Shown one piece after another: positions 4,751-57,871 of a stretch of DNA of 64,000 nucleotides. The DNA is taken from sequence record NC_048196.1, one strand, 5' to 3'. Origin of the DNA: Escherichia phage vB_EcoM_Schickermooser. Under the pieces are notes generated by a model. It worked only from the letters and a program-made list of their open reading frames with translations. It was not told the origin of the DNA and searched no databases. The translations under genes and the position numbers were made by a program. Each line of letters starts with the position of its first letter. Positions within the stretch are counted from its first letter, which is position 1.

Positions 4751-4984
4751 ATGAAAGGTAACAAGATGAAAGTTAATCAGGTACCGAGTGCATACACTTT
4801 GTGGCTTGCGCGAGCGTTACACCAGACGATCAAAAATCCTAAGAAGCCAATGAAGAGTGGGAAGAAGTTTATGTCTAAGGGCAAAACAACCTTTGGCTTC
4901 ACTCGTATGTCTGTTAAGATGAAAAGACTGGGGTATAAGCCAAACTACGCTCGTTACCCTTCCGAATACAACTGGTTTGACTAA
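4751..4984 (+). CDS. hypothetical basic protein
   Basis: ATG 4751 after AAGGAGG; lysine-rich product. Confidence 0.5.
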   Translation: MKGNKMKVNQVPSAYTLWLARALHQTIKNPKKPMKSGKKFMSKGKTTFGFTRMSVKMKRLGYKPNYARYPSEYNWFD

Positions 4985-18769: not shown

Positions 18770-19585
18770 TTATTTGTTTAAGTGGTCTTCGACCATTTTA
18801 ATGAAACCTTCATTGCTGAAGGCTGTTGCAGCTTTTTCTCGGTAAACAAAAACTCCACGATCTTCATAGAGAAGTGTTTCTTCGTAATTAACTCCAGGGT
18901 TAACTACAACCATTTTTGTACCCATACTAAGTGCAGGAAATAATTCCCAATTAAAATTGATAACTTGGTTTGAACATCCTACTACTACAACCAAATCTTG
19001 CATGGTCAAAGTATCGAACAAGTGAGCCATATCTGCATACAAAGGTGCAGCCTCACCAAAAAATACAACATTAGGCTTCACCCAGTTATAATCATCTATG
19101 TTTATACTATTGTAACCAATATCTACCAGTGTTTTGTAATCTCCAGGATGCATACGGTAAACTACTTCAGGAAGATATCCGTGTACGTGAATAACAGAAT
19201 CTCTGTCTACACCTGCTCGCTCTAGTAGATCATCAACGTTTGTTGTCAAGTTTACTATTTGGTTAGGATATTCCTTAAACCACTTTGCTATTTGAATATG
19301 TGCAGCATTAGGTTGTACATCTTTAAGCTCAACACGTCTTTTGTTATAAAATTCGTGTGTTTTGGCATACAAATCCATACCGTTCTCGTCTACACCACCG
19401 ACCACTGGAAGATCTGGAGATGTTCTAACACGATAACCTGCTTGGAAAGCTCCAATATCGCAGACCTCTTCTAAATCATATTCTTCCCATAAAGCACGAC
19501 CACTATCTGTGTCTGTTCTAAATGTTCGAATCCCACTGTCTGCACTTAAACCTGCACCGCTTACAAAAATCACTCGTCTTGGCAT
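18770..19585 (-). CDS. Sir2-family NAD-dependent deacylase/ADP-ribosyltransferase
   Basis: GAGLSADSGIRTFR matches the sirtuin GAG(I/L)S..GI..FR signature. Confidence 0.65.
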   Translation of the reverse strand: MPRRVIFVSGAGLSADSGIRTFRTDTDSGRALWEEYDLEEVCDIGAFQAGYRVRTSPDLPVVGGVDENGMDLYAKTHEFYNKRRVELKDVQPNAAHIQIAKWFKEYPNQIVNLTTNVDDLLERAGVDRDSVIHVHGYLPEVVYRMHPGDYKTLVDIGYNSINIDDYNWVKPNVVFFGEAAPLYADMAHLFDTLTMQDLVVVVGCSNQVINFNWELFPALSMGTKMVVVNPGVNYEETLLYEDRGVFVYREKAATAFSNEGFIKMVEDHLNK

Positions 19586-20113: not shown

Positions 20114-20767
20114 CTATACCAGACTTTGTAGGTATTTGTCAAGGGCTTCTTGATCGCCTTGACAAACATAGCAACGGAAGTCTTGAGCCGAAGGTTGTTT
20201 ATTTTCATCCCAGTCCCAATAAACATTACCCTTATAACGTGAACCAGGAAACTCAAAAGAGGCTGTATGTGTAATGTATCCTGGGCCACCAATGAAATCA
20301 CAGAATGAGAATTGGGGGTATGCCGCCTTTACTGCCTCAATAAACCAAGCTTTACGATCTAAAGCTTCATTGATGCTATACGCATGTCTCTCCATTTCTT
20401 CCCACGTTTTCCAGACACTTCTCTCATCAGGAGAAAAGACAAGCCATTCTGGAAGGTATAGAGTGTCATAGTAATCATCATATTCGATCTCGGAGGCGCA
20501 CGAAGCTGACTCCTCCAGTTTTGAGTAATCAAAAGCAGAATATACCCACCAACCATCTTCCAGTAACGCTTTGATAGGGACGAAGCCTTTATCAGCATAT
20601 TGATCGAATTGTTTGACACGGTGGCTTGTGCAGTCTTCAAACTCACATTCTAAACGATATGCACCTTTTCGACGAGCCTCAAGACCGTGTGTACTGAAAA
20701 TAACAACACTTCCTTCACCATCATTACGATCTACTTGATAAGCAACCACTGGTTTTGAATTTGACAT
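20114..20767 (-). CDS. hypothetical protein
   Basis: 217-aa ORF. Confidence 0.5.
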   Translation of the reverse strand: MSNSKPVVAYQVDRNDGEGSVVIFSTHGLEARRKGAYRLECEFEDCTSHRVKQFDQYADKGFVPIKALLEDGWWVYSAFDYSKLEESASCASEIEYDDYYDTLYLPEWLVFSPDERSVWKTWEEMERHAYSINEALDRKAWFIEAVKAAYPQFSFCDFIGGPGYITHTASFEFPGSRYKGNVYWDWDENKQPSAQDFRCYVCQGDQEALDKYLQSLV

Positions 20768-21450
20768 TATTTCTCCTTATCTAGAAGATTGTTAGACAAA
20801 AACACTGCACGAGCAAAACCACGTGCGGTTAGTGATCTAAGTTGTTTTGTTTTTGCACTAGCTCCACCTAAGCTTTTCCAACCCCAGAAGCAGCCTATAT
20901 GATCTACTGGTTTCTTCACTGGTTGAACAAAACCATTGCCGTGCCAAATACAAGTTTTCTTTGTATACCCATCACGGGTAGGCATTTTAGGATGAAAGCT
21001 TCCTTCCTCTTCAAACAAATACCCACCATACTCATAAGGATCAAAGTAAAAATCGGGTTTACGCCATAAGGTTGAAAGTTTACCTACTGGGTTCTCAATC
21101 ATCCAAGGAACATTATATTTGTTACCCAAAGCTTCCACTACACGAATATTAGCTAAAGCTTCATCCAATTCCTCTGTGCTGCGTTCGTGTTTGCTGCCAC
21201 TACCTGCTAACATAGTGCAAGGTGGAAATCCAAAAATAATATCGGGTTTAGGTATCCCATGATCTTCAGGGTTGAATGTAGAATCTATCCAGGCATTCAC
21301 ATAGGTTATGTTTGGGTGCTCCATCCTAACCTCGTATTTACCGTGATCCCCTTCATCAGCGTTTACACAAAAACACTTGTGACCTGCTTCGGCATAACGT
21401 AACACCATGATCCCAGATCCGTCAAACATAGACAAAACTGTTTTACTCAT
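20767..21450 (-). CDS. C5-cytosine methyltransferase-like protein (variant motifs)
   Basis: ATG 21450 after GGAGGGG; FDGSG (motif I-like), GFPPCT (PC motif IV-like), ENP (ENV-like). Confidence 0.45.
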   Translation of the reverse strand: MSKTVLSMFDGSGIMVLRYAEAGHKCFCVNADEGDHGKYEVRMEHPNITYVNAWIDSTFNPEDHGIPKPDIIFGFPPCTMLAGSGSKHERSTEELDEALANIRVVEALGNKYNVPWMIENPVGKLSTLWRKPDFYFDPYEYGGYLFEEEGSFHPKMPTRDGYTKKTCIWHGNGFVQPVKKPVDHIGCFWGWKSLGGASAKTKQLRSLTARGFARAVFLSNNLLDKEK

Positions 21451-21856
21451 TACCCCTCCATTCAAGACAAGCCATAACTTTACGCCAATCACTTTCTGTA
21501 AGAAAAATCTCGTTTGCTTTCTTCCACAAATCTAAATCGTGAAGGGTTGGAATACGGTATGTTAGTTCACAGAATCTATGCTCTTCTTCTGTAATATAAC
21601 CAAAATGCAGAGCCACATCGTGAAACCAACACCAACCATGCATCTCTCGAACAACATGGTCATGTTGAGACATTATTTTATGCCGTAAACCTAACCAACA
21701 AGGAACAGATACTTTAGTAGTCTTTAATCTGTGATCAACAGTATTAGAGTATTCAATAATAGCTGTCAGTTTCAATCGTGCTTTTTCTAAATCCTCATGC
21801 GTCACTTTGAAATAACTTTCTGAAAGATATCCACACATATTAATAACCTCCTTCAA
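21443..21856 (-). CDS. hypothetical protein
   Basis: 137-aa ORF overlapping neighbours by a few bases. Confidence 0.5.
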   Translation of the reverse strand: MKEVINMCGYLSESYFKVTHEDLEKARLKLTAIIEYSNTVDHRLKTTKVSVPCWLGLRHKIMSQHDHVVREMHGWCWFHDVALHFGYITEEEHRFCELTYRIPTLHDLDLWKKANEIFLTESDWRKVMACLEWRGNE

Positions 21857-22781
21857 AAGGCTTTACTACATGTTGATTAGCTTTAAAACGTTCAACATAG
21901 TCGTTTTCGCCCATGTTTTCATATAGCTTAATAACAACATAAAAGTTTTCCCAAGCATATTCCCTAAACCAACCACTAGTGATGGATGTGCAGACTTTAG
22001 ATAAAGCCATTATAAAACTTTGCTTAGGGGTTGGACCTCCGATCTCTCCACCGAAAGGAATTTGTGAACGTTCCAAAGCCAAAACACACGCTTCTTCATA
22101 AACACCTAACAGGCGCACATGTTTTGGTTGAGCAAAAAACTTTTCTTTGCTGGTCATAACTTCACTTCCATCTTTCATATAAGATTTATATGCCGGAGCA
22201 TCCATTACCGCGATTGCTTCATGGATAGAATCATGATCATAAACATACGGAACCTCATCACCTTTAAAAAAGTCTTTACTTTTTACGTTTAAGTTCGGAT
22301 GAGAGTAAGTGTATGTTTCTTTCTCACGCAACTCATAAATACTCTTAAGATTTTCTGGGATCTTTGCGCCCAGTGACCGCATGAAATGAATATCTTTCAT
22401 AGTTTTAAAGAAGTGAGGACTATCCTTTTTAAAACGATGACTCATTTTAAGAAGGTAGAGCACATCTAAAGGAGCAACAACATGTCCCGCGTAAGTTCGA
22501 CGAACATCATCAGAATCTTCACAATAACTAATCAAAGCTTCTGTGCTATCTCCTTGAGAAGCAATATCGTATTCCAAATGTGCACCAGCTATCATTTTGA
22601 CATGGCCTTTGTTTCCTTTACGTTCTACAAGTTCAACAAACTCCTCTTGAGAGAACATTTTTGATAATTCTTCCCACTCTTGTTCTGTACACAGGTAATC
22701 TAAATCTACACAAGGGCGATACAAGTCTTTTCCCATGTCCATAGCATGAATTTGCAATGCACGGCTACCAATTAACACCAT
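21840..22781 (-). CDS. hypothetical protein, possible nucleotidyltransferase fold
   Basis: N-terminal LIGSRALQ...DLDYL resembles GS...D.D of minimal NTase folds; GAGGAG SD. Confidence 0.45.
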   Translation of the reverse strand: MVLIGSRALQIHAMDMGKDLYRPCVDLDYLCTEQEWEELSKMFSQEEFVELVERKGNKGHVKMIAGAHLEYDIASQGDSTEALISYCEDSDDVRRTYAGHVVAPLDVLYLLKMSHRFKKDSPHFFKTMKDIHFMRSLGAKIPENLKSIYELREKETYTYSHPNLNVKSKDFFKGDEVPYVYDHDSIHEAIAVMDAPAYKSYMKDGSEVMTSKEKFFAQPKHVRLLGVYEEACVLALERSQIPFGGEIGGPTPKQSFIMALSKVCTSITSGWFREYAWENFYVVIKLYENMGENDYVERFKANQHVVKPFEGGY

Positions 22782-22811
22782 AATATTTCTCCTCTATTGG
22801 TTGATAGGTTA

Positions 22812-22840
22812 AGTTTATCAAGCTTCCAGATTCCTGTCAA
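22812..22840 (-). promoter_or_regulatory. sigma70-like promoter, minus strand (TTGACA-N17-TAAACT)
   Basis: immediately downstream of terminator hairpin, upstream of the 22781 start. Confidence 0.5.
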
Positions 22841-22845
22841 TAAAA

Positions 22846-22863
22846 AACCCGCCGAAGCGGGTT
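22846..22863 (-). terminator. intrinsic terminator, minus strand
   Basis: AACCCGC-CGAA-GCGGGTT hairpin followed on minus strand by TTTTTTA. Confidence 0.55.
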
Positions 22864-22871
22864 ATTATTTA

Positions 22872-23144
22872 CTAACACATTGAGGAAGAAGAGATCCAAA
22901 CACCTCTTGTGGTTAAACCGTTTTCATCCAACTCTACACCATAATCTTCACAAATGAAATCAATATAGTGATCTGCGGCTGGCGTTCCTGTAGGGTAATA
23001 AGTTTCTCCGTTACCGTAGTCACCTATCCAAGCTTGTTCCTGAAACTGTTCACAAAGTTCTTCAATCTCCTTACGAAACTTTCTTTGTGCTTGTTCCATC
23101 TCTTTAACTTTCTTTTTTATCAGCAGTTCGCCTTCAGACTCCAC
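22872..23144 (-). CDS. small acidic protein, 'SS-C tail' family member
   Basis: C-terminus GVWISSSSMC; two paralogs downstream. Confidence 0.5.
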   Translation of the reverse strand: MESEGELLIKKKVKEMEQAQRKFRKEIEELCEQFQEQAWIGDYGNGETYYPTGTPAADHYIDFICEDYGVELDENGLTTRGVWISSSSMC

Positions 23145-23153
23145 AATCTCTCC

Positions 23154-23414
23154 TTAACAGCTACTACTGTGCCAAACGCCTTGAGAATTAACGACGAAAC
23201 CATCATCACCTTCACCATAACAAGAAGAGGATTGCCAATCTTCAAAACAGATTGCGTCATTTTCTAAACTAAGACCAAAACCAGCATCTTCAGCTTCTTT
23301 TGTAAGTTCGTCCACTAAAGCCATAATAGCTTGGGCTTTTTCAGTTAATTCTTCAACATTACGATCACTCATTAGTATTTCTCCTCCGGTTGGAAAACTG
23401 AACGACAAGCCCAC
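23154..23414 (-). CDS. small acidic protein, 'SS-C tail' family member
   Basis: C-terminus GVWHSSSC. Confidence 0.5.
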   Translation of the reverse strand: MGLSFSFPTGGEILMSDRNVEELTEKAQAIMALVDELTKEAEDAGFGLSLENDAICFEDWQSSSCYGEGDDGFVVNSQGVWHSSSC

Positions 23415-23686
23415 ATACTAGCTTCTTTTAAATGTTTAATAGCACAACGGATTTGATCAATACGCTCGTATGCAACATCTAATTCTTTTTCTGTGCCGTC
23501 AAAAGACCCATGATATGCTTCACAATACTCTTCCTCTAAAGCTTTGAAGATTAAACCTAAACGCTCTTCTGCATCTTTAATAGCGTTAACCTTGCCAATC
23601 TTATCGTCAGTATGCGCCTTATAACCTTTGATATCTTCGATTCCCACTTTACCTCCTATTAACAACTTAAAGAAGATGGATGCCAA
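23372..23686 (-). CDS. hypothetical protein
   Basis: 104-aa ORF. Confidence 0.45.
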   Translation of the reverse strand: MASIFFKLLIGGKVGIEDIKGYKAHTDDKIGKVNAIKDAEERLGLIFKALEEEYCEAYHGSFDGTEKELDVAYERIDQIRCAIKHLKEASMWACRSVFQPEEKY

Positions 23687-23856
23687 TTTGTCCCAGTATT
23701 CTCATTTTCATCTTCTGGATCATAATAACCCCCCATCCCATATTCAGGGGAGAAACGGAAACCTTCTCCAGTCTCGTCTGCTAACTGCTCTGCTTCCGCT
23801 AAAGCATCATAAGCTGCTTTTACGGCTTCTTCTACTGTTTTAAACTTGGTCGTCAT
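23659..23856 (-). CDS. small acidic protein, 'SS-C tail' family member
   Basis: C-terminus TNWHPSSLSC. Confidence 0.5.
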   Translation of the reverse strand: MTTKFKTVEEAVKAAYDALAEAEQLADETGEGFRFSPEYGMGGYYDPEDENENTGTNWHPSSLSC

Positions 23857-24130
23857 AAAATTTCTCCTCTCCTAAAGACATGGTGACATGAAATGCACGA
23901 TATGTAAATTCGTTGTCCGTTGTGTTTGAATAAAACTCAAATTGAACAACACCGTCTTGAGAAGACAAATACATGCCAATTTGAACTGTACCTTCTGGTA
24001 CCAGGTAAGCATACTCTGGGCGTAGTGTTACATTGTAAAAATAAAGTTCCCCAACACCCATTTCATCCCAAGCTTCCCAAGCGGTAACGAAGTTACTTTC
24101 AAAACTTGTTACTGATCCGAACTCTGCCAT
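23840..24130 (-). CDS. hypothetical protein
   Basis: 96-aa ORF. Confidence 0.5.
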   Translation of the reverse strand: MAEFGSVTSFESNFVTAWEAWDEMGVGELYFYNVTLRPEYAYLVPEGTVQIGMYLSSQDGVVQFEFYSNTTDNEFTYRAFHVTMSLGEEKFYDDQV

Positions 24131-24621
24131 AAAACCTCCTCAATCTTGTAGTTTGACTCCATCTCCAACACATTTCCACGAACGTCTCTCCGAAGAAAGG
24201 CATAAGCTTTATTAGGTATTGTAGACTCATATTTAACCATATCTGGCACAGCAAAAGATACTACTACTCCTGCTGGACTTCTGTCAAGAGCCTTATTAAT
24301 ATTTCTAAGGATATCATTAGCCAAGATCTCTGCCAATTCTCCAAGAACAGTTTCGGTTATATCTTTATATCCCATTAAGTATTTGTTGATATCTTTCATC
24401 TCTGTATTGTTCAGAGTATAATCTAAAGGATAGAAATTCAAAGCGGAGTCACTTTTATGTGTCCACATGAAATGTACCCGATCCGAGCAGAATCGTAACC
24501 CTCTACGAAGAATATCTTCTACAACAGGGAGAATTTCTTTTGTCACATCATTAACCATGTTGTAATCTAAGATTTCTGCCAAATTTGTTCTTTGTTCACC
24601 ACGTTTACGTTTAGGAATCAC
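24109..24621 (-). CDS. hypothetical protein
   Basis: 170-aa ORF. Confidence 0.5.
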   Translation of the reverse strand: MIPKRKRGEQRTNLAEILDYNMVNDVTKEILPVVEDILRRGLRFCSDRVHFMWTHKSDSALNFYPLDYTLNNTEMKDINKYLMGYKDITETVLGELAEILANDILRNINKALDRSPAGVVVSFAVPDMVKYESTIPNKAYAFLRRDVRGNVLEMESNYKIEEVLWQSSDQ

Positions 24622-25192
24622 TTGTTATTGCCCTCATTACCAAAGGTCGTAGAAAATCGTAAATCTCTTGTTTTGTTTTCCCACGAATGTTTAAACAAGG
24701 AACATTATTGGCTTTAGCTATCTTCCAAGCCGTAGCTGTTCCACCTTTTGCATCTCCATGTTTATCAGTATTAGCACAAGCCAACAAGAAACATGATGGA
24801 GCAGGATTCTCCAAATCTCTACCTAACACTTGATGCACATTACGTTGGTGCAATTTTCTAGCACCCTGCTTAAGCTTTTCATAGGCTGGGTGAACATCTT
24901 TGATCCATTGCACAGAGATAGCATAGTTCATTGTATCTGGTTTTGCAAGAACAATAACATCCCCTGGAATCTGATTACCTTTGAAATTTTCCCAAGGAAC
25001 ATAAATCTCCTTGTTAGTAGGATTTTCAGACTCTTGGACACCTGTTTCAAAAGCAGAATCACTACCCTCTGCCTTCCCAGACCTTAATTTAAACCCAAGG
25101 TTTGAAAGCCATTTCCCTATACCTACCATCAAAGCCCACTCTTCTTCGGATATGTCTCTACTTCCAACTCCCGTATAGAACAGTTCTGCCAT
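24611..25192 (-). CDS. DprA/Smf-like (SLOG-type Rossmann) protein
   Basis: ATG 25192 after GAGGTGA; YTGVGSRD and SGKAEGSD motifs. Confidence 0.45.
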   Translation of the reverse strand: MAELFYTGVGSRDISEEEWALMVGIGKWLSNLGFKLRSGKAEGSDSAFETGVQESENPTNKEIYVPWENFKGNQIPGDVIVLAKPDTMNYAISVQWIKDVHPAYEKLKQGARKLHQRNVHQVLGRDLENPAPSCFLLACANTDKHGDAKGGTATAWKIAKANNVPCLNIRGKTKQEIYDFLRPLVMRAITSDS

Positions 25193-25199
25193 AATCACC

Positions 25200-25508
25200 T
25201 CAACAAGTAATTTCAAAAGGTGTATACGGTTCCGTATTTCTCATGATCCAAGGACTGCTAGGATTGCTCGGATCATAAGGACCAAAAGGTTTTATGGTCG
25301 GTTGTGTTTCTTTCTTCTGAATCTCTTCAAAAATACGACGAAGTTCAGAATATTCTTGATCCACCATAAGATTCGGTGCATCTGATTCTACAGCTTGCAG
25401 GTTATCTTCCTTAAGAACAATCTCACGAACAAGATTAACATCTTCTGTTTCTAAGATAACTTCTTTACGGATATTACCTACACTTTGAATAATTGTAATC
25501 TTATACAT
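25200..25508 (-). CDS. hypothetical protein
   Basis: 102-aa ORF. Confidence 0.5.
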   Translation of the reverse strand: MYKITIIQSVGNIRKEVILETEDVNLVREIVLKEDNLQAVESDAPNLMVDQEYSELRRIFEEIQKKETQPTIKPFGPYDPSNPSSPWIMRNTEPYTPFEITC

Positions 25509-26251
25509 TAATCCTCCTCAAGAGTTGAATAAAATTGAAGACCACCGTCCATATCGAAATAAGCAAATGTTAAGTTATTATTGAACACAGATCCAGTATC
25601 CATATAAACACGATTCGCATTGATAATAGGTGTTTTTACATAAGAGTGTCCATGAAACACATAATCCACACCCATCACAACAGGAAGTTTCATTCCCTCT
25701 TTAGCACAGTCTACCATATCTCTGTCCCACATAAGTGCTTCAGCAAAACGGTTTTCCTGTGTTTTTGTCATCTTCGAAATGTATTCTGGAATATCTGTTA
25801 CAGGGAGATATTCCAAAGAAGATGGATACCCACCATGAATAAACGCAAGTTTCATGCCTCTGTAGTTAACAATGAGAACAACAGGTAAATCTTCTGTCAT
25901 CATTGCTAAGGCTGTAGCTCCTTCTTCACCACATTCTTCAAAGACCGTATATCCTCCATTTTGATACCAACACTCGTAGTAGCTACGATCTCCTTCCAGC
26001 ATACCTTTAATCATCATGTCTTCATGATTGCCACGAATAGCGTAGCGATTGTGTTTACGAGTAAATTCTAAAACACAACGAAAGTTTTGCTTTCCACGGT
26101 CAGTAAGATCTCCTAGAGATACAACCACATCTGTATCTCGGATACCTAACTTTGCCTTTCCTTTTTCATACAAATTATAACAACCGTGTAGATCTCCAAT
26201 TATAAAAAGATCTTGATCGCTTTTAACAGTAATTTCTCTGTGTATGATCAC
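25508..26251 (-). CDS. Ser/Thr protein phosphatase (lambda-phosphatase-like metallophosphoesterase)
   Basis: GDLHG, GDLTDRG and GNHE motifs. Confidence 0.7.
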   Translation of the reverse strand: MIIHREITVKSDQDLFIIGDLHGCYNLYEKGKAKLGIRDTDVVVSLGDLTDRGKQNFRCVLEFTRKHNRYAIRGNHEDMMIKGMLEGDRSYYECWYQNGGYTVFEECGEEGATALAMMTEDLPVVLIVNYRGMKLAFIHGGYPSSLEYLPVTDIPEYISKMTKTQENRFAEALMWDRDMVDCAKEGMKLPVVMGVDYVFHGHSYVKTPIINANRVYMDTGSVFNNNLTFAYFDMDGGLQFYSTLEED

Positions 26252-55946: not shown

Positions 55947-56021
55947 GGCCCTGTAGCTCAATGGGAGAGCTGTCGGCTCATAACCGATAGGTAGCTGGAT
56001 CGAAACCAGCCAGGGCCACCA
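55947..56021 (+). tRNA. tRNA-Met (anticodon CAT; could be Ile2/lysidine type)
   Basis: manual cloverleaf: acceptor GGCCCTG/CAGGGCC, anticodon loop CTCATAA, encoded CCA. Confidence 0.6.
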
Positions 56022-56023
56022 AA

Positions 56024-56098
56024 GTCTTTATGGTGTAATGGATAGCACAGGAGTCTTCTAAACTCTTAGTCAAGGTTCGATTCCTTGTAAAGACACCA
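56024..56098 (+). tRNA. tRNA-Arg (anticodon TCT)
   Basis: acceptor GTCTTTA/TAAAGAC, anticodon loop CTTCTAA, T-loop TTCGATT, CCA. Confidence 0.6.
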
Positions 56099-56100
56099 GA

Positions 56101-56286
56101 ACATTTTAACATGAATTAGCTCAAGTGATTTGAACCCACTACTGATCATGGTGGCAGAGAATGAGGCAAGTATGTCAGACATTATAAACAAAGGCCACGG
56201 TTATATTAGAAGACATAAATGCTCGAAGAGCACCGTTCGTGGAGAACGGGGGTTGGTGGAGTCACCATTCATGGTAAAATGTTTTA
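56101..56286 (+). ncRNA. candidate structured RNA flanked by 17-bp near-perfect inverted repeat
   Basis: AACATTTTAACATGAAT at 56101 pairs with ATTCATGGTAAAATGTT at 56270 (one mismatch). Confidence 0.3.
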
Positions 56287-56294
56287 AAAAACTA

Positions 56295-56324
56295 TTGACA
56301 ACAAGTATTATTTTATGTTAGATT
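56295..56324 (+). promoter_or_regulatory. sigma70-like promoter candidate (TTGACA-N18-TAGATT)
   Basis: TTGACA 56295-56300; immediately upstream of tRNA-Ser. Confidence 0.45.
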
Positions 56325-56332
56325 ATAAGTAT

Positions 56333-56423
56333 GGAAGGGCAAATCGACGTGGCGACGAAAACGGTCTTGAAAACCGCCGAGCTTTAAAGAGCCTTGGGAG
56401 TTCGACTCTCCCTCCTTCCGCCA
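56333..56423 (+). tRNA. tRNA-Ser (anticodon TGA), type II
   Basis: acceptor GGAAGGG/TCCTTCC, loop CTTGAAA, long variable arm, CCA. Confidence 0.55.
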
Positions 56424-56428
56424 GGTTA

Positions 56429-56514
56429 GGTAGATTGGTGAAATGGTAGCCACGACAGTTTGCTAAACTGTAGTCGGAAACGGCGTGTAGGTTCGAGTCC
56501 TACATCTACCGCCA
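56429..56514 (+). tRNA. tRNA-Ser (anticodon GCT), type II
   Basis: acceptor GGTAGAT/ATCTACC, loop TTGCTAA, long variable arm, CCA. Confidence 0.6.
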
Positions 56515-56516
56515 AG

Positions 56517-56625
56517 TTCTTTTTAATGTAGCTTACTTTAATAGAGTAAACTTTCGGCAAATGGCCCCCACCATCTTACCGATAACTCATAGTTAGTGGT
56601 GCGAACACTGGCTATTTTAAAAAGA
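56517..56625 (+). ncRNA. candidate structured element between tRNAs
   Basis: TTCTTTTTAA at 56517 versus TTAAAAAGAA at 56616 inverted repeat; internal hairpins. Confidence 0.2.
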
Positions 56626-56643
56626 ATTTAAATACTAGCATTT

Positions 56644-56731
56644 AGGTGAGTTAATTCCGTAGGGGTAGCGGGGCAGACTGTAAATCTGTTATCATTGCGA
56701 TTCGGGTGGTTCGACTCCATCACTCACCACC
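56644..56731 (+). tRNA. tRNA-Tyr (anticodon GTA), type II
   Basis: acceptor GGTGAGT/ACTCACC, loop CTGTAAA, long variable arm, CCA. Confidence 0.55.
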
Positions 56732-56737
56732 AAATTA

Positions 56738-56823
56738 AGATGAGTTGGCTGAATGGTTTAAGCGGCGGACTGTTAATCCGTGTTCGAAAGAACGATATAG
56801 GTTCAAATCCTATACTCATCGCC
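56738..56823 (+). tRNA. type II tRNA with apparent anticodon GTT (Asn anticodon on long-variable-arm body)
   Basis: acceptor GATGAGT/ACTCATC, anticodon stem GCGGA/TCCGT, loop CTGTTAA, variable hairpin GTTC-GAAA-GAAC, CCA. Confidence 0.45.
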
Positions 56824-56830
56824 AGAATTA

Positions 56831-56908
56831 TGGACTTGTAGAGTTAAGGTAAACCCCCCAGTCGCCAAGAGGCTTCTGGAATTGCAGGTATCGAATCCTG
56901 CCGAGTCC
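56831..56908 (+). tRNA. tRNA-like element, atypical (anticodon not assignable)
   Basis: 7-bp acceptor pairing GGACTTG/CGAGTCC and T-arm GCAGG/CCTGC with 8-nt loop; no canonical anticodon arm. Confidence 0.3.
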
Positions 56909-56914
56909 CAGCTT

Positions 56915-56989
56915 TGCTCCTATAGTATAATGGCTATTACAACGGTTTTGTAATCCGTGGATCTCTGTTCGATTCAGAGTGGGAGCACC
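56915..56989 (+). tRNA. tRNA-Thr (anticodon TGT)
   Basis: acceptor GCTCCTA/TGGGAGC, loop TTTGTAA, T-arm CTCTG-TTCGATT-CAGAG, CCA. Confidence 0.55.
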
Positions 56990-57263
56990 AACACAACATT
57001 AAGGGCACTGTGATTGATCGTCGTATCCTGTGCACAAGGTCTGTTCGAAAGACAGTGTTCTTAGTATTGTGTTGATCACAAAAAGAGTTACCTGAAACTT
57101 GACCGGAGTAGGGTTGGATGGGGCAAAAGAAGAAGCGGCTCTCCCATCGACAGCAACGAAGAATAATATTTGACTTTGGTTTTGTATTATTTTAAGTTAG
57201 CTTACCGAACGTAGGGCTAGTCACCCAATGGGATACTCGTCACTGTCCCACTCAATAAAACTA

Positions 57264-57293
57264 TTGACAACCAATAGTAAAATGTAGTATAGT
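57264..57293 (+). promoter_or_regulatory. sigma70-like promoter candidate (TTGACA-N18-TATAGT)
   Basis: TTGACA 57264-57269, TATAGT 57288-57293; upstream of tRNA-Gly. Confidence 0.5.
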
Positions 57294-57304
57294 AAAGATG
57301 TAGG

Positions 57305-57378
57305 GCGTTCTTGGTGTAGCGGTAGCATTCCGTCCTTCCAAGTCGGCGGCACGAGTTCGATCCTCGTAGAACGCTCCA
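57305..57378 (+). tRNA. tRNA-Gly (anticodon TCC)
   Basis: acceptor GCGTTCT/AGAACGC, loop CTTCCAA, T-arm ACGAG-TTCGATC-CTCGT, CCA. Confidence 0.55.
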
Positions 57379-57476
57379 AATTATTTAATAAAGGGTTGCC
57401 AGAAAACTTTCTCTTTTACTCATGGTTTTCTCCTTCTCTCACACCTCTTCTGGTTGCCCTTCATTAAATGATTTAT

Positions 57477-57552
57477 TGGTTTGTAGTGTAGTCAGGTAGC
57501 ACACGACACTTTGACTGTCGTAGGTTTGGTTCAAATCCAGACAGACCAGCCA
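57477..57552 (+). tRNA. tRNA-Gln (anticodon TTG)
   Basis: U1-A72 acceptor TGGTTTG/CAGACCA, anticodon stem CGACA/TGTCG, loop CTTTGAC, CCA. Confidence 0.55.
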
Positions 57553-57557
57553 TATAA

Positions 57558-57634
57558 CGGAATTTAGCTCAGTTTGGTAGAGCATACGCTTTGGGAGCGT
57601 AGGGTCGCAGGTTCGAATCCTGCAATTCCGACCA
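57558..57634 (+). tRNA. tRNA-Pro (anticodon TGG)
   Basis: acceptor CGGAATT/AATTCCG, loop TTTGGGA, T-arm GCAGG-TTCGAAT-CCTGC, CCA. Confidence 0.65.
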
Positions 57635-57640
57635 ATTTAA

Positions 57641-57714
57641 TGTTTCGTAGTTCAATGGTAGAACCCACGACTGATAATCGTGAGACACAAGTTCGATTCT
57701 TGTCGAAACAACCA
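57641..57714 (+). tRNA. tRNA-Ile (anticodon GAT)
   Basis: acceptor TGTTTCG/CGAAACA, anticodon stem CACGA/TCGTG, loop CTGATAA, CCA. Confidence 0.55.
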
Positions 57715-57717
57715 ATT

Positions 57718-57786
57718 TCCCGTTAGACTTACAGGATAAGAGTTCCACAGCTTATTGTGATGCTGGTTCGAATCCAGCACGGGATA
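57718..57786 (+). tRNA. tRNA-like element with non-canonical anticodon arm
   Basis: T-arm GCTGG-TTCGAAT-CCAGC and 6/7 acceptor pairing; best anticodon stem CACA/TGTG encloses a 6-nt loop; no CCA. Confidence 0.3.
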
Positions 57787-57792
57787 CATAAT

Positions 57793-57871
57793 AGCGGGAT
57801 AGAGGAGTCTGGTCGTCCTCGCCAGTTTCATATGCTGGAGATCATCGGTTCAAATCCGATTCCCGCCTCCA
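57793..57871 (+). tRNA. tRNA-Met (anticodon CAT), 1-72 mismatch (initiator-like?)
   Basis: acceptor AGCGGGA/TCCCGCC with A1-C72 mismatch, anticodon stem CCAGT/GCTGG, loop TTCATAT, T-loop TTCAAAT, CCA. Confidence 0.5.

What the first reader, a model, noticed from the sequence alone, without database searches (positions are those of the whole stretch)
22872..23856. Trio of small acidic paralogs ending in a Ser-Ser-Cys tail
Three ORFs (22872, 23154, 23659) are acidic, helical-looking N-terminally and end in GVWISSSSMC, GVWHSSSC and TNWHPSSLSC. A shared aromatic-then-SS(S)C C-terminus on tandem paralogs suggests a conserved terminal modification or metal/thiol site. The acidity is reminiscent of DNA-mimic anti-restriction proteins.
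Basis: seen in the sequence. Interest (0 to 1): 0.45.

Follow-up and report, generated by a model that had tools for sequence, protein, structure and literature searches.

The report
Cysteine-tailed small proteins partnering a phage nucleotidyltransferase
Three small acidic phage proteins share an invariant Trp-x-Ser-Ser-(Ser-x-x)-Cys ending; this ending marks a large uncharacterised phage protein family that nearly always sits just upstream of a MenT-like nucleotidyltransferase gene, which suggests an undescribed enzyme-plus-tagged-partner module.

Summary
Three minus-strand genes (22872-23144, 23154-23372, 23659-23856) encode acidic proteins (pI 4.0-4.4) ending GVWISSSSMC, GVWHSSSC and TNWHPSSLSC. 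All three hit PHROG 899 and are under purifying selection (pN/pS 0.15-0.22). They are not strictly tandem: an Acb2/Vs.4 anti-CBASS sponge gene (23372-23647) lies between the second and third.

The tail is the most conserved part of the family. W, S, S and the terminal C are invariant across 41 aligned homologs, and 110 distinct tail proteins from 49 loci match the same motif pattern. At least 16 sequence clusters carry it, and about a sixth of the proteins carry it twice. Shuffled C-termini match at 9e-5.

Best reading: the tails are the enzyme's recognition or acceptor element. The DNA-mimic idea has no support beyond acidity. The function is untested and I found no publication on it.

The parts
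23659..23856 (-). ORF-C, 65 aa. Tail-family member (main cluster, AYGMGG-type body) ending NWHPSSLSC.
   Evidence: phrog_899 E 6e-13; pN/pS 0.15
23662..23685 (-). Tail motif of ORF-C: W-H-P-S-S-L-S-C (long class, W + 7).
23372..23647 (-). Inserted gene, not a tail-family member: Acb2/Vs.4 cyclic-nucleotide sponge homolog (91 aa). Its stop overlaps the ORF-B start (TAATG).
   Evidence: PF24729 E 1.3e-16; T4 Vs.4 7uq2 E 1.8e-28. Absent from the array in the 77%-identical relative L003.
23154..23372 (-). ORF-B, 72 aa. Tail-family member of the double-motif subfamily, ending VWHSSSC.
   Evidence: phrog_899 E 1.4e-5; pN/pS 0.22; cluster 1
23220..23237 (-). Internal copy of the motif in ORF-B: W-Q-S-S-S-C (residues 46-51).
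23157..23174 (-). Terminal tail motif of ORF-B: W-H-S-S-S-C (short class, W + 5).
22872..23144 (-). ORF-A, 90 aa. Tail-family member (main cluster, GDYGNGETYYP body) ending VWISSSSMC.
   Evidence: phrog_899 E 5e-14; AF2 pLDDT 94.8; pN/pS 0.18
22875..22898 (-). Tail motif of ORF-A: W-I-S-S-S-S-M-C. In the model, W83-S85 form the third strand of the small sheet.
22846..22863 (-). Intrinsic-terminator-like hairpin (AACCCGC-TTCG-GCGGGTT followed by TTTTTAT) starting 9 nt after the ORF-A stop.
22812..22840 (-). Sigma-70-like promoter TTGACA-17-TAAACT (with TG) in front of the nucleotidyltransferase gene.
21840..22781 (-). Coupled enzyme gene, 313 aa: DUF7277 (Pol-beta nucleotidyltransferase core with invariant G5 S6, D26 x D28, E70) plus the DUF7275 helical domain.

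Best explanation
ORF-A, -B and -C belong to a large uncharacterised phage superfamily of small acidic proteins. Each has an N-terminal helix, a short beta-sheet, and an invariant ending W-x-[S/A/P]-S-S-x-x-C or W-x-[P/S]-S-S-C.

These proteins are most likely the cognate partners of the MenT/AbiEii-like nucleotidyltransferase encoded just downstream (21840-22781). In this reading the shared tail is the element the enzyme recognises, and the variable bodies give each paralog its own role early in infection, in host takeover or counter-defence.

My preferred sub-mechanism is that the tail enters the enzyme's active site and one of the invariant serine hydroxyls accepts a nucleotidyl (NMP) group. 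That would make the arrangement one enzyme with several tagged substrates. The closest alternative within the same explanation is that the tail acts as a pseudo-substrate or regulatory plug, as the small MenA1 antitoxin does for MenT1.

Shown here: the genes are real; the tail is invariant and portable; the coupling to the enzyme gene is near-obligate in both directions; the enzyme has a nucleotidyltransferase fold and catalytic residues.

Inferred only: physical contact, the chemistry, the acceptor residue, and the biological target.
For: 1. Tail invariance. W, S, S and C are the only invariant columns apart from the start Met in 41 homologs. All 110 distinct tail proteins matched by the motif regex fall into two tail classes, and in the 86-member long class both serines were free to vary in the regex yet are invariant.

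2. Portability. The same tail sits on at least 16 sequence clusters with unrelated bodies of 50-173 aa. It is duplicated within 21 of 121 proteins, including ORF-B. That is how a recognition or modification motif behaves.

3. Coupling.
- 20 of the 23 viral loci fetched with the enzyme as query carry 1-5 tail ORFs just upstream on the same strand; the other three have one about 6 kb away on the opposite strand.
- 24 of 24 loci fetched with a tail-family query carry the enzyme 0.05-2.3 kb downstream.
- The script scored 13 of 16 enzyme lineages at 60% identity as coupled, about 15 of 16 after inspecting L051 and L053 by eye.
- All 9 distant metagenomic contigs (39-50% identity) have such ORFs just upstream of the enzyme gene, one of them with a variant ending.
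- Acinetobacter, Pseudomonas and Pseudoalteromonas phages show the same arrangement.
- Genus counts of phage records nearly match: Escherichia 258 vs 251, Klebsiella 35 vs 34, Enterobacter 36 vs 34, Shigella 18 vs 18.

5. Precedent. MenT1 is controlled by a short protein encoded upstream, which blocks the active site and triggers auto-phosphorylation (PMC10435456, PMC11375011).

6. Tail-less homologs differ. The actinophage enzyme homologs without tail ORFs also lack C264 and the SPHF and YSHP motifs, which are invariant in tail-linked enzymes.

7. Loose linkage. A terminator plus a separate promoter, and intervening genes in T4-like phages, fit enzyme and substrates better than a stoichiometric toxin-antitoxin pair.
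Against: - No interaction or modification has been observed, and no complex model could be run.
- In the AF2 model the tail Trp-x-Ser stretch (residues 83-85) is a strand of the domain's sheet rather than a floppy tail. It may therefore be structural.
- From my own knowledge, the known protein substrates of Pol-beta-fold nucleotidyltransferases are modified on Tyr (MntA on HepT, GlnE, DrrA), not on Ser.
- The model does not explain the invariant Trp and Cys.
- Coupling is not absolute. L007-L009 have the enzyme with the only tail ORF 6 kb away on the other strand. Actinophage homologs have none.
- The C264 correlation rests on two related sequences and is confounded by phylogeny.
- Synteny in hyperplastic early regions can persist through co-inheritance alone.
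Confidence: 0.5

Rival explanations
1. MenA-like regulators. The small proteins are antitoxin-like inhibitors or switches of a tRNA-modifying nucleotidyltransferase. Contact would be mainly through their N-terminal helix, and the tail would play a secondary or different role. The module would be a phage-borne toxin-antitoxin-like pair used for host shut-off or timing.
For: The closest structural relatives of the enzyme are MenT toxins. MenA1 is a short protein encoded upstream of MenT1 whose N-terminal helix drives inhibition. The tail proteins sit upstream on the same strand, are acidic, and begin with a long helix carrying a conserved AE-x-LAD motif.
Against: One antitoxin would be enough, yet arrays hold 1-5 diverged paralogs that are retained as separate subfamilies. 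A terminator and a separate promoter separate the array from the enzyme. Intervening genes occur in T4-like phages. The invariant part is the tail, not the helix. The enzyme does not match PF08843/DUF1814 in Pfam even at E<=10. The family profile finds no PDB sequence, MenA1 included, at E<=10.
Confidence: 0.2
2. Autonomous anti-defence or host-takeover binders, such as nucleic-acid mimics or small-molecule sponges. The C-terminal motif would be a structural cap or ligand pocket, and linkage to the enzyme would reflect co-inheritance within an early accessory-gene block.
For: The proteins are very acidic, with median pI 4.33 and 99 of 110 below pI 5. In this window an Acb2 sponge gene sits inside the array, and Sir2- and methyltransferase-annotated genes are nearby. 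The tail Trp-x-Ser stretch is part of the folded sheet. A second conserved motif, GDYGxGxTYYPKG, could form a pocket with it.
Against: Acb2 is in the array only in the phAPEC8 group. There is no fold or sequence similarity to any known mimic or sponge. Many tail carriers, ORF-B included, lack the GDYG motif. Co-inheritance does not easily explain conservation of the pairing down to 39% enzyme identity across unrelated phage groups.
Confidence: 0.17
3. Thiol, metal or redox module. The terminal cysteines of several subunits or paralogs come together to form a metal or disulfide/persulfide site, possibly completed by the enzyme's invariant Cys264 and His residues.
For: The terminal Cys is invariant. 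Tail-linked enzymes have an invariant C264 and several invariant His residues, while tail-less actinophage homologs have Ile at position 264.
Against: 35 of 110 members have a single Cys. Paralog number varies from 1 to 5, so no fixed stoichiometry is apparent. The invariant serines are not typical metal ligands. No oligomer evidence exists. The cytoplasm is reducing.
Confidence: 0.08
4. RiPP-like precursors. The tail would be a core peptide processed into a small molecule or crosslinked, for example Ser activation and elimination followed by Cys addition, or a Trp-Cys crosslink.
For: Several precursor-like paralogs lie next to one enzyme. A conserved C-terminal core with Ser and Cys recalls cofactor-type RiPPs (my own knowledge of PqqA and MftA).
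Against: The proteins are confidently predicted as folded domains with the tail's Trp-x-Ser stretch inside the sheet. The bodies are under purifying selection. No known RiPP enzyme class is nearby. There is no protease or exporter, and no precedent exists for this enzyme fold in such chemistry.
Confidence: 0.05

Closest known systems
MenAT1 (MenA1 antitoxin with MenT1 nucleotidyltransferase toxin, Mycobacterium tuberculosis) and the wider DUF1814/AbiEii family
   Different: There is no detectable sequence membership in DUF1814. The enzyme carries an extra 190-aa DUF7275 domain. The system is encoded by lytic phages and has 1-5 diverged small partners rather than one. The partners share an invariant C-terminal W-x-S-S-S-x-x-C motif and show no similarity to MenA1. 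A terminator and promoter lie between the partners and the enzyme. Toxicity and tRNA activity are untested.
MntA-HepT (type VII toxin-antitoxin, in which a minimal nucleotidyltransferase poly-AMPylates its partner protein)
   Same: The concept matches the preferred sub-mechanism: a Pol-beta nucleotidyltransferase covalently nucleotidylylates a small partner protein encoded next to it (my own knowledge of the family).
   Different: In MntA-HepT the acceptor is a Tyr in a HEPN RNase. The tail proteins have no HEPN fold. The proposed acceptor here is Ser in a C-terminal motif, and there are several substrates. Nothing has been demonstrated here.
Acidic phage DNA mimics (Ocr, ArdA, Arn)
   Same: Small size, strong negative charge and early-gene context.
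   Different: There is no sequence or fold similarity. The mimics have no conserved terminal Ser/Cys motif and no coupled enzyme.
Acb2/Vs.4, Tad1 and Tad2 sponge proteins
   Same: These are small phage proteins of similar size, and an Acb2 gene is embedded in this very array.
   Different: The tail proteins do not hit the Acb2/Tad1 Pfam model. The fold differs. Acb2 is absent from the arrays of all other phage groups examined.

Membership tests
PHROG 899 / tail-family superfamily (uncharacterised) | Significant profile match | tested here: met
   phrog_899 E 5.1e-14 (A), 1.4e-5 (B), 6.1e-13 (C). Family HMM E 1.3e-27, 1.4e-9, 7.3e-14.
PHROG 899 / tail-family superfamily (uncharacterised) | C-terminal W-x-[SAP]-S-S-x-x-C or W-x-[PS]-S-S-C at the very end of the protein | tested here: met
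   A has WISSSSMC, C has WHPSSLSC and B has WHSSSC.
PHROG 899 / tail-family superfamily (uncharacterised) | DUF7277/DUF7275 nucleotidyltransferase gene downstream on the same strand | tested here: met
   The window enzyme gene at 21840-22781 starts 90 bp after the ORF-A stop.
MenAT / AbiE (DUF1814 nucleotidyltransferase toxin with cognate antitoxin) | Enzyme belongs to DUF1814 (PF08843) by sequence | tested here: not met
   Pfam at E<=10 returns only DUF7275, DUF7277 and a chance CLCA hit. PADLOC returns none.
MenAT / AbiE (DUF1814 nucleotidyltransferase toxin with cognate antitoxin) | MenT-like nucleotidyltransferase fold with G[ST], DxD and a further acidic catalytic residue | tested here: met
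MenAT / AbiE (DUF1814 nucleotidyltransferase toxin with cognate antitoxin) | Small partner homologous to a known antitoxin (MenA1, MenA3/AbiEi) | tested here: not met
MenAT / AbiE (DUF1814 nucleotidyltransferase toxin with cognate antitoxin) | Toxicity of the enzyme, neutralisation by the partner, and tRNA 3'-end extension | not testable with these tools
   Requires expression and tRNA assays.
DNA-mimic anti-restriction proteins (Ocr, ArdA, Arn) | Sequence or fold relationship to a known mimic | tested here: not met
   Searches give no such hit.
DNA-mimic anti-restriction proteins (Ocr, ArdA, Arn) | Strongly acidic small protein | tested here: met
   pI 4.05-4.40. This feature is not specific to mimics.
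DNA-mimic anti-restriction proteins (Ocr, ArdA, Arn) | Inhibition of restriction or other DNA-binding defence enzymes | not testable with these tools
   Needs plating or biochemical assays.
RiPP precursor peptides | Adjacent enzyme of a known RiPP-modifying class, and a largely unstructured leader/core peptide | tested here: not met
   The neighbours carry no RiPP enzyme domains. ORF-A is predicted as a compact fold with pLDDT 94.8.
RlaP (PF10127) RNA-ligase-associated nucleotidyltransferases (considered for the coupled enzyme) | Match to PF10127 | tested here: not met
   No PF10127 hit at E<=10. The family definition comes from the bioRxiv abstract 10.64898/2025.12.29.696909, listed.

The most novel reading that the evidence does not exclude
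Lytic phages of many groups encode a previously unrecognised protein-tagging system. A MenT-like nucleotidyltransferase would covalently nucleotidylylate, or otherwise chemically modify, a portable W-x-S-S-S-x-x-C tag carried by an array of small acidic effector proteins. This would switch on or retarget several host-takeover or anti-defence effectors at once.
Probability: 0.25. Interest if true: 0.85.

Novelty: new variant of a known kind. Interest (0 to 1): 0.6.

Why it matters
The enzyme is present in more than 700 sequenced phage genomes, including RB69 and many therapeutic-candidate coliphages, and it has about 2,200 database homologs. Yet both components are annotated only as hypothetical or DUF.

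A short invariant terminal motif shared by up to five diverged paralogs and tied to one enzyme gives a clean, cheap hypothesis to test by mass spectrometry, pull-down and point mutants. If the tail is modified or plugs the enzyme, this would extend MenT/AbiE-type nucleotidyltransferase biology from bacterial toxin-antitoxin defence to the phage side of the conflict. It would also define a new sequence tag for finding phage effector proteins.

If the tail does neither, the family remains one of the larger uncharacterised early-gene families of T4-like phages, and it appears to have a new small fold.

Tried and rejected
Searches that returned nothing useful for the three proteins:
- Pfam, NCBIfam and PADLOC.
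- PDB sequence-profile search: 0 hits at E<=10.
- Foldseek against BFVD: only uncharacterised family members.
- The afdb50 fold library was unavailable.

Technical dead ends:
- The search for related loci with the broad alignment A3 failed for lack of a conserved 7-10-column block. A narrower alignment, A5, worked.

Ideas tested and dropped:
- Tails conserved because of a DNA repeat or terminator. Rejected because the serine codons differ between paralogs.
- Acb2 as part of the system. Rejected because it is in the array only in the phAPEC8 group.
- RlaP identity of the enzyme. Rejected.
- tRNA-cluster adjacency as a functional clue. The window's tRNA cluster is 33 kb away.
- Cassette as a bacterial toxin-antitoxin or defence module. 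Only 9 hits in 185,579 species genomes, all MAG contigs that carry the same cassette; I suspect these are phage-derived but did not test that.

Literature searches for DUF7275/DUF7277, phage MenT-like enzymes and C-terminal-cysteine small proteins found nothing on this family.

Full report
**Source and layout.** The window is a Phapecoctavirus, a phAPEC8-like E. coli myovirus of about 150 kb. Bases 22000-25000 are 99% identical to Escherichia phage Mt1B1_P17 and many relatives. All genes in the region run on the minus strand.

**Checking the observation.** The three ORFs exist as described.
- ORF-A (22872-23144): 90 aa, ends GVWISSSSMC.
- ORF-B: 72 aa from ATG 23372. The longer 23414 frame has no RBS support and is not the annotated gene. 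It ends GVWHSSSC.
- ORF-C (23659-23856): 65 aa, ends TNWHPSSLSC.

They are acidic, with pI 4.40, 4.05 and 4.10. All three hit the same PHROG of unknown function (phrog_899) but no Pfam, NCBIfam or PADLOC model. Against orthologs in a relative with 75-80% protein identity, pN/pS is 0.18, 0.22 and 0.15, so all three are expressed, constrained genes.

The tail serines are encoded by TCN codons in one paralog and AGY codons in another. Selection therefore acts on the peptide, not on a DNA repeat.

One correction to the finding: the trio is interrupted. The 91-aa gene at 23372-23647 between ORF-B and ORF-C is an Acb2/Vs.4 anti-CBASS sponge homolog (Pfam PF24729, E 1.3e-16; T4 Vs.4 structure 7uq2, E 1.8e-28).

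**Is the tail conserved?** Yes, more than anything else in the protein.
- A word-indexed search and an exhaustive HMMER search recovered homologs from T4-like and other phages down to about 25% identity.
- In a 41-sequence alignment the only invariant columns apart from the start Met are W83, S86, S87 and C90 of ORF-A.
- tblastn with one member finds 440 phage records.
- Across 49 fetched loci I collected 110 distinct proteins with the motif. They fall into two classes, W-x-[S/A/P]-S-S-x-x-C (86) and W-x-[P/S]-S-S-C (24).
- Median length is 86 aa and median pI is 4.33. In 35 of them the terminal Cys is the only Cys.
- Shuffled C-termini match the motif at 9e-5.
- The motif sits on at least 16 sequence clusters whose bodies are not alignable by BLAST. 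In 21 of 121 proteins, ORF-B included (WQSSSC...WHSSSC), it occurs twice.

**The key new finding is the neighbour.** RB69 carries its own trio of tail genes: ORF139c/138c (split by a frameshift in that record), ORF137c and ORF136c. These are followed by ORF134c, a homolog of the window's 313-aa gene at 21840-22781. I tested this synteny in both directions.

- *Enzyme as query.* All 23 viral loci fetched contain tail ORFs. In 20 of them, 1-5 lie directly upstream on the same strand.
- *Tail-family alignment as query.* All 24 loci fetched contain the enzyme gene 0.05-2.3 kb downstream on the same strand.
- *Collapsing redundancy.* The script scored 13 of 16 enzyme lineages at 60% identity as having the arrangement. 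Inspection raises this to about 15 of 16: L053 does have a tail ORF ending at 4978 just before the match, and L051 has a variant tail.
- *The real exception.* In one lineage (L007-L009) the only tail ORF is 6 kb away on the other strand.
- *Distant contigs.* Nine metagenome-assembled contigs with only 39-50% enzyme identity still show tail ORFs just upstream.
- *Other phage groups.* The same holds in Acinetobacter (Lazarusvirus), Pseudomonas (Otagovirus) and Pseudoalteromonas phages.
- *Record counts.* The enzyme is in 713 phage records, and genus counts nearly equal those of the tail family.

The Acb2 gene lies inside the array only in the phAPEC8 group. A relative with 77% enzyme identity lacks it there, so Acb2 is an insertion and not part of the module.

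**What the neighbour is.** Pfam calls it DUF7277 + DUF7275. I found no paper mentioning either. An alignment of 34 homologs has invariant G5 S6, D26 x D28 and E70, which is the Pol-beta nucleotidyltransferase signature, plus many invariant His, Asp and Cys residues in the C-terminal domain.

MenT toxins add nucleotides to tRNA 3' ends. MenT1 is controlled by MenA1, a short protein encoded upstream that blocks the active site and induces auto-phosphorylation (PMC10435456, PMC11375011).

**Interpretation.** The motif is invariant, portable and sometimes duplicated on otherwise diverged small proteins, and it is near-obligately linked to one enzyme gene. The simplest explanation is that the proteins are the enzyme's partners and the tail is what the enzyme recognises.

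I favour a substrate model, in which a serine hydroxyl of the tail accepts an NMP. Four points support it:
- Several diverged paralogs share only the tail.
- The motif can be repeated within one protein.
- The invariant residues include two hydroxyls.
- Array and enzyme are not translationally coupled. In this window a terminator-like hairpin (22863-22846) and a TTGACA-17-TAAACT promoter (22840-22812) lie between them. In T4-like phages other genes intervene.

A MenA-like inhibitor role is the closest alternative.

One weak lead: the two actinophage enzyme homologs that lack tail ORFs also lack C264 and the SPHF and YSHP motifs, which are invariant in tail-linked enzymes. They sit next to an RNA ligase gene or a tRNA cluster. 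Only two related sequences support this, so it is a hint and not a correlation.

**What argues against the interpretation.**
- Nothing physical has been shown.
- The tail Trp-x-Ser stretch is part of the predicted sheet and could be structural.
- From my own knowledge, known protein substrates of this enzyme superfamily are modified on Tyr.
- The invariant Trp and Cys remain unexplained.
- Synteny alone cannot prove interaction.

Rival readings are listed in the report with their tests: autonomous acidic binders or sponges, a thiol/metal site built from several subunits, and RiPP-like precursors.

**Novelty.** Neither component has a described function in the libraries or literature available here. 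The nearest known system is the MenA1-MenT1 pair. The phage module differs in five ways:
- the enzyme's sequence family;
- the extra DUF7275 domain;
- the number and diversity of the partners;
- the signature tail;
- the gene organisation.

I rate it a new variant of a known kind (a nucleotidyltransferase with small protein partners). It could turn out to be a new kind of protein tagging.

Noticed in passing
window 23372-23647 (-): An Acb2/Vs.4 anti-CBASS cyclic-nucleotide sponge homolog (91 aa, GTG start) is embedded between ORF-B and ORF-C. Its stop overlaps the ORF-B start codon (TAATG). It sits in this position only in the phAPEC8 group.
   Followed up: yes
L002 3995-4301 (RB69 AY303349, ORF139c/ORF138c): In the RB69 record the first tail-family gene is split into two annotated ORFs by a frameshift. 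The body ends ...PKGEIVSQWYEK, and the tail ...EGAWVSSPALC is in another frame. This is either a pseudogene or a sequencing error. The tail also reads SSP instead of SSS.
   Followed up: partly
L061 (Streptomyces phage Annadreamy) 3848-4603; L062 (Gordonia phage Smoothie) 3812-4603: The actinophage homologs of the nucleotidyltransferase are shorter (251-263 aa) and have no tail ORFs nearby. They lie next to an RNA ligase gene (Annadreamy) or a tRNA gene cluster (Smoothie), which hints at an RNA/tRNA-end function for the enzyme core.
   Followed up: partly
L004-L006 4032-5895; L036 4989-6234: Some phages carry five consecutive tail genes. Two of them are about 145 aa with bodies unrelated to PHROG 899, and one ends SSSICW instead of a terminal Cys.
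   Followed up: partly
window 18770-19585 (-), 20767-21492 (-): On the enzyme-gene side of the cassette, within about 3 kb, lie a Sir2-family gene (PF02146, E 1.9e-22) and a gene annotated as DNA methyltransferase in RefSeq, which has no Pfam hit here.
   Followed up: no
window 24611-25216 (-), 25508-26251 (-): [quoted passage not shown] No tool result supports either function.
   Followed up: no
window 55947-57871 (+): A cluster of 10 tRNA genes (Met, Arg, Ser, Asn, Thr, Gly, Gln, Pro, Ile, Met) lies 33 kb from the cassette.
   Followed up: no
phage record MG065650.1 (hits H38, H136, H141): A record named 'Campylobacter phage B15' carries this region, with the nucleotidyltransferase 100% identical to the window's. 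It is a Phapecoctavirus-type genome, so the host label looks doubtful. The same applies to the 'Acinetobacter', 'Pseudomonas' and 'Klebsiella ZCKP1' records at 97% (ABPW7, ZCKP1) and 80% (PsgM04F) identity over ORF-C.
   Followed up: no
window 23840-24130 (-): A 96-aa gene (phrog_4991, unknown function) overlaps the ORF-C start by 17 nt. It has no tail motif and is not part of the conserved cassette in other phages.
   Followed up: partly
L007 6001-6927: The one enzyme lineage without adjacent tail genes keeps C264 but changes the otherwise conserved TSGWFREYAWEN motif to TSGRFRTYAWEN.
   Followed up: no
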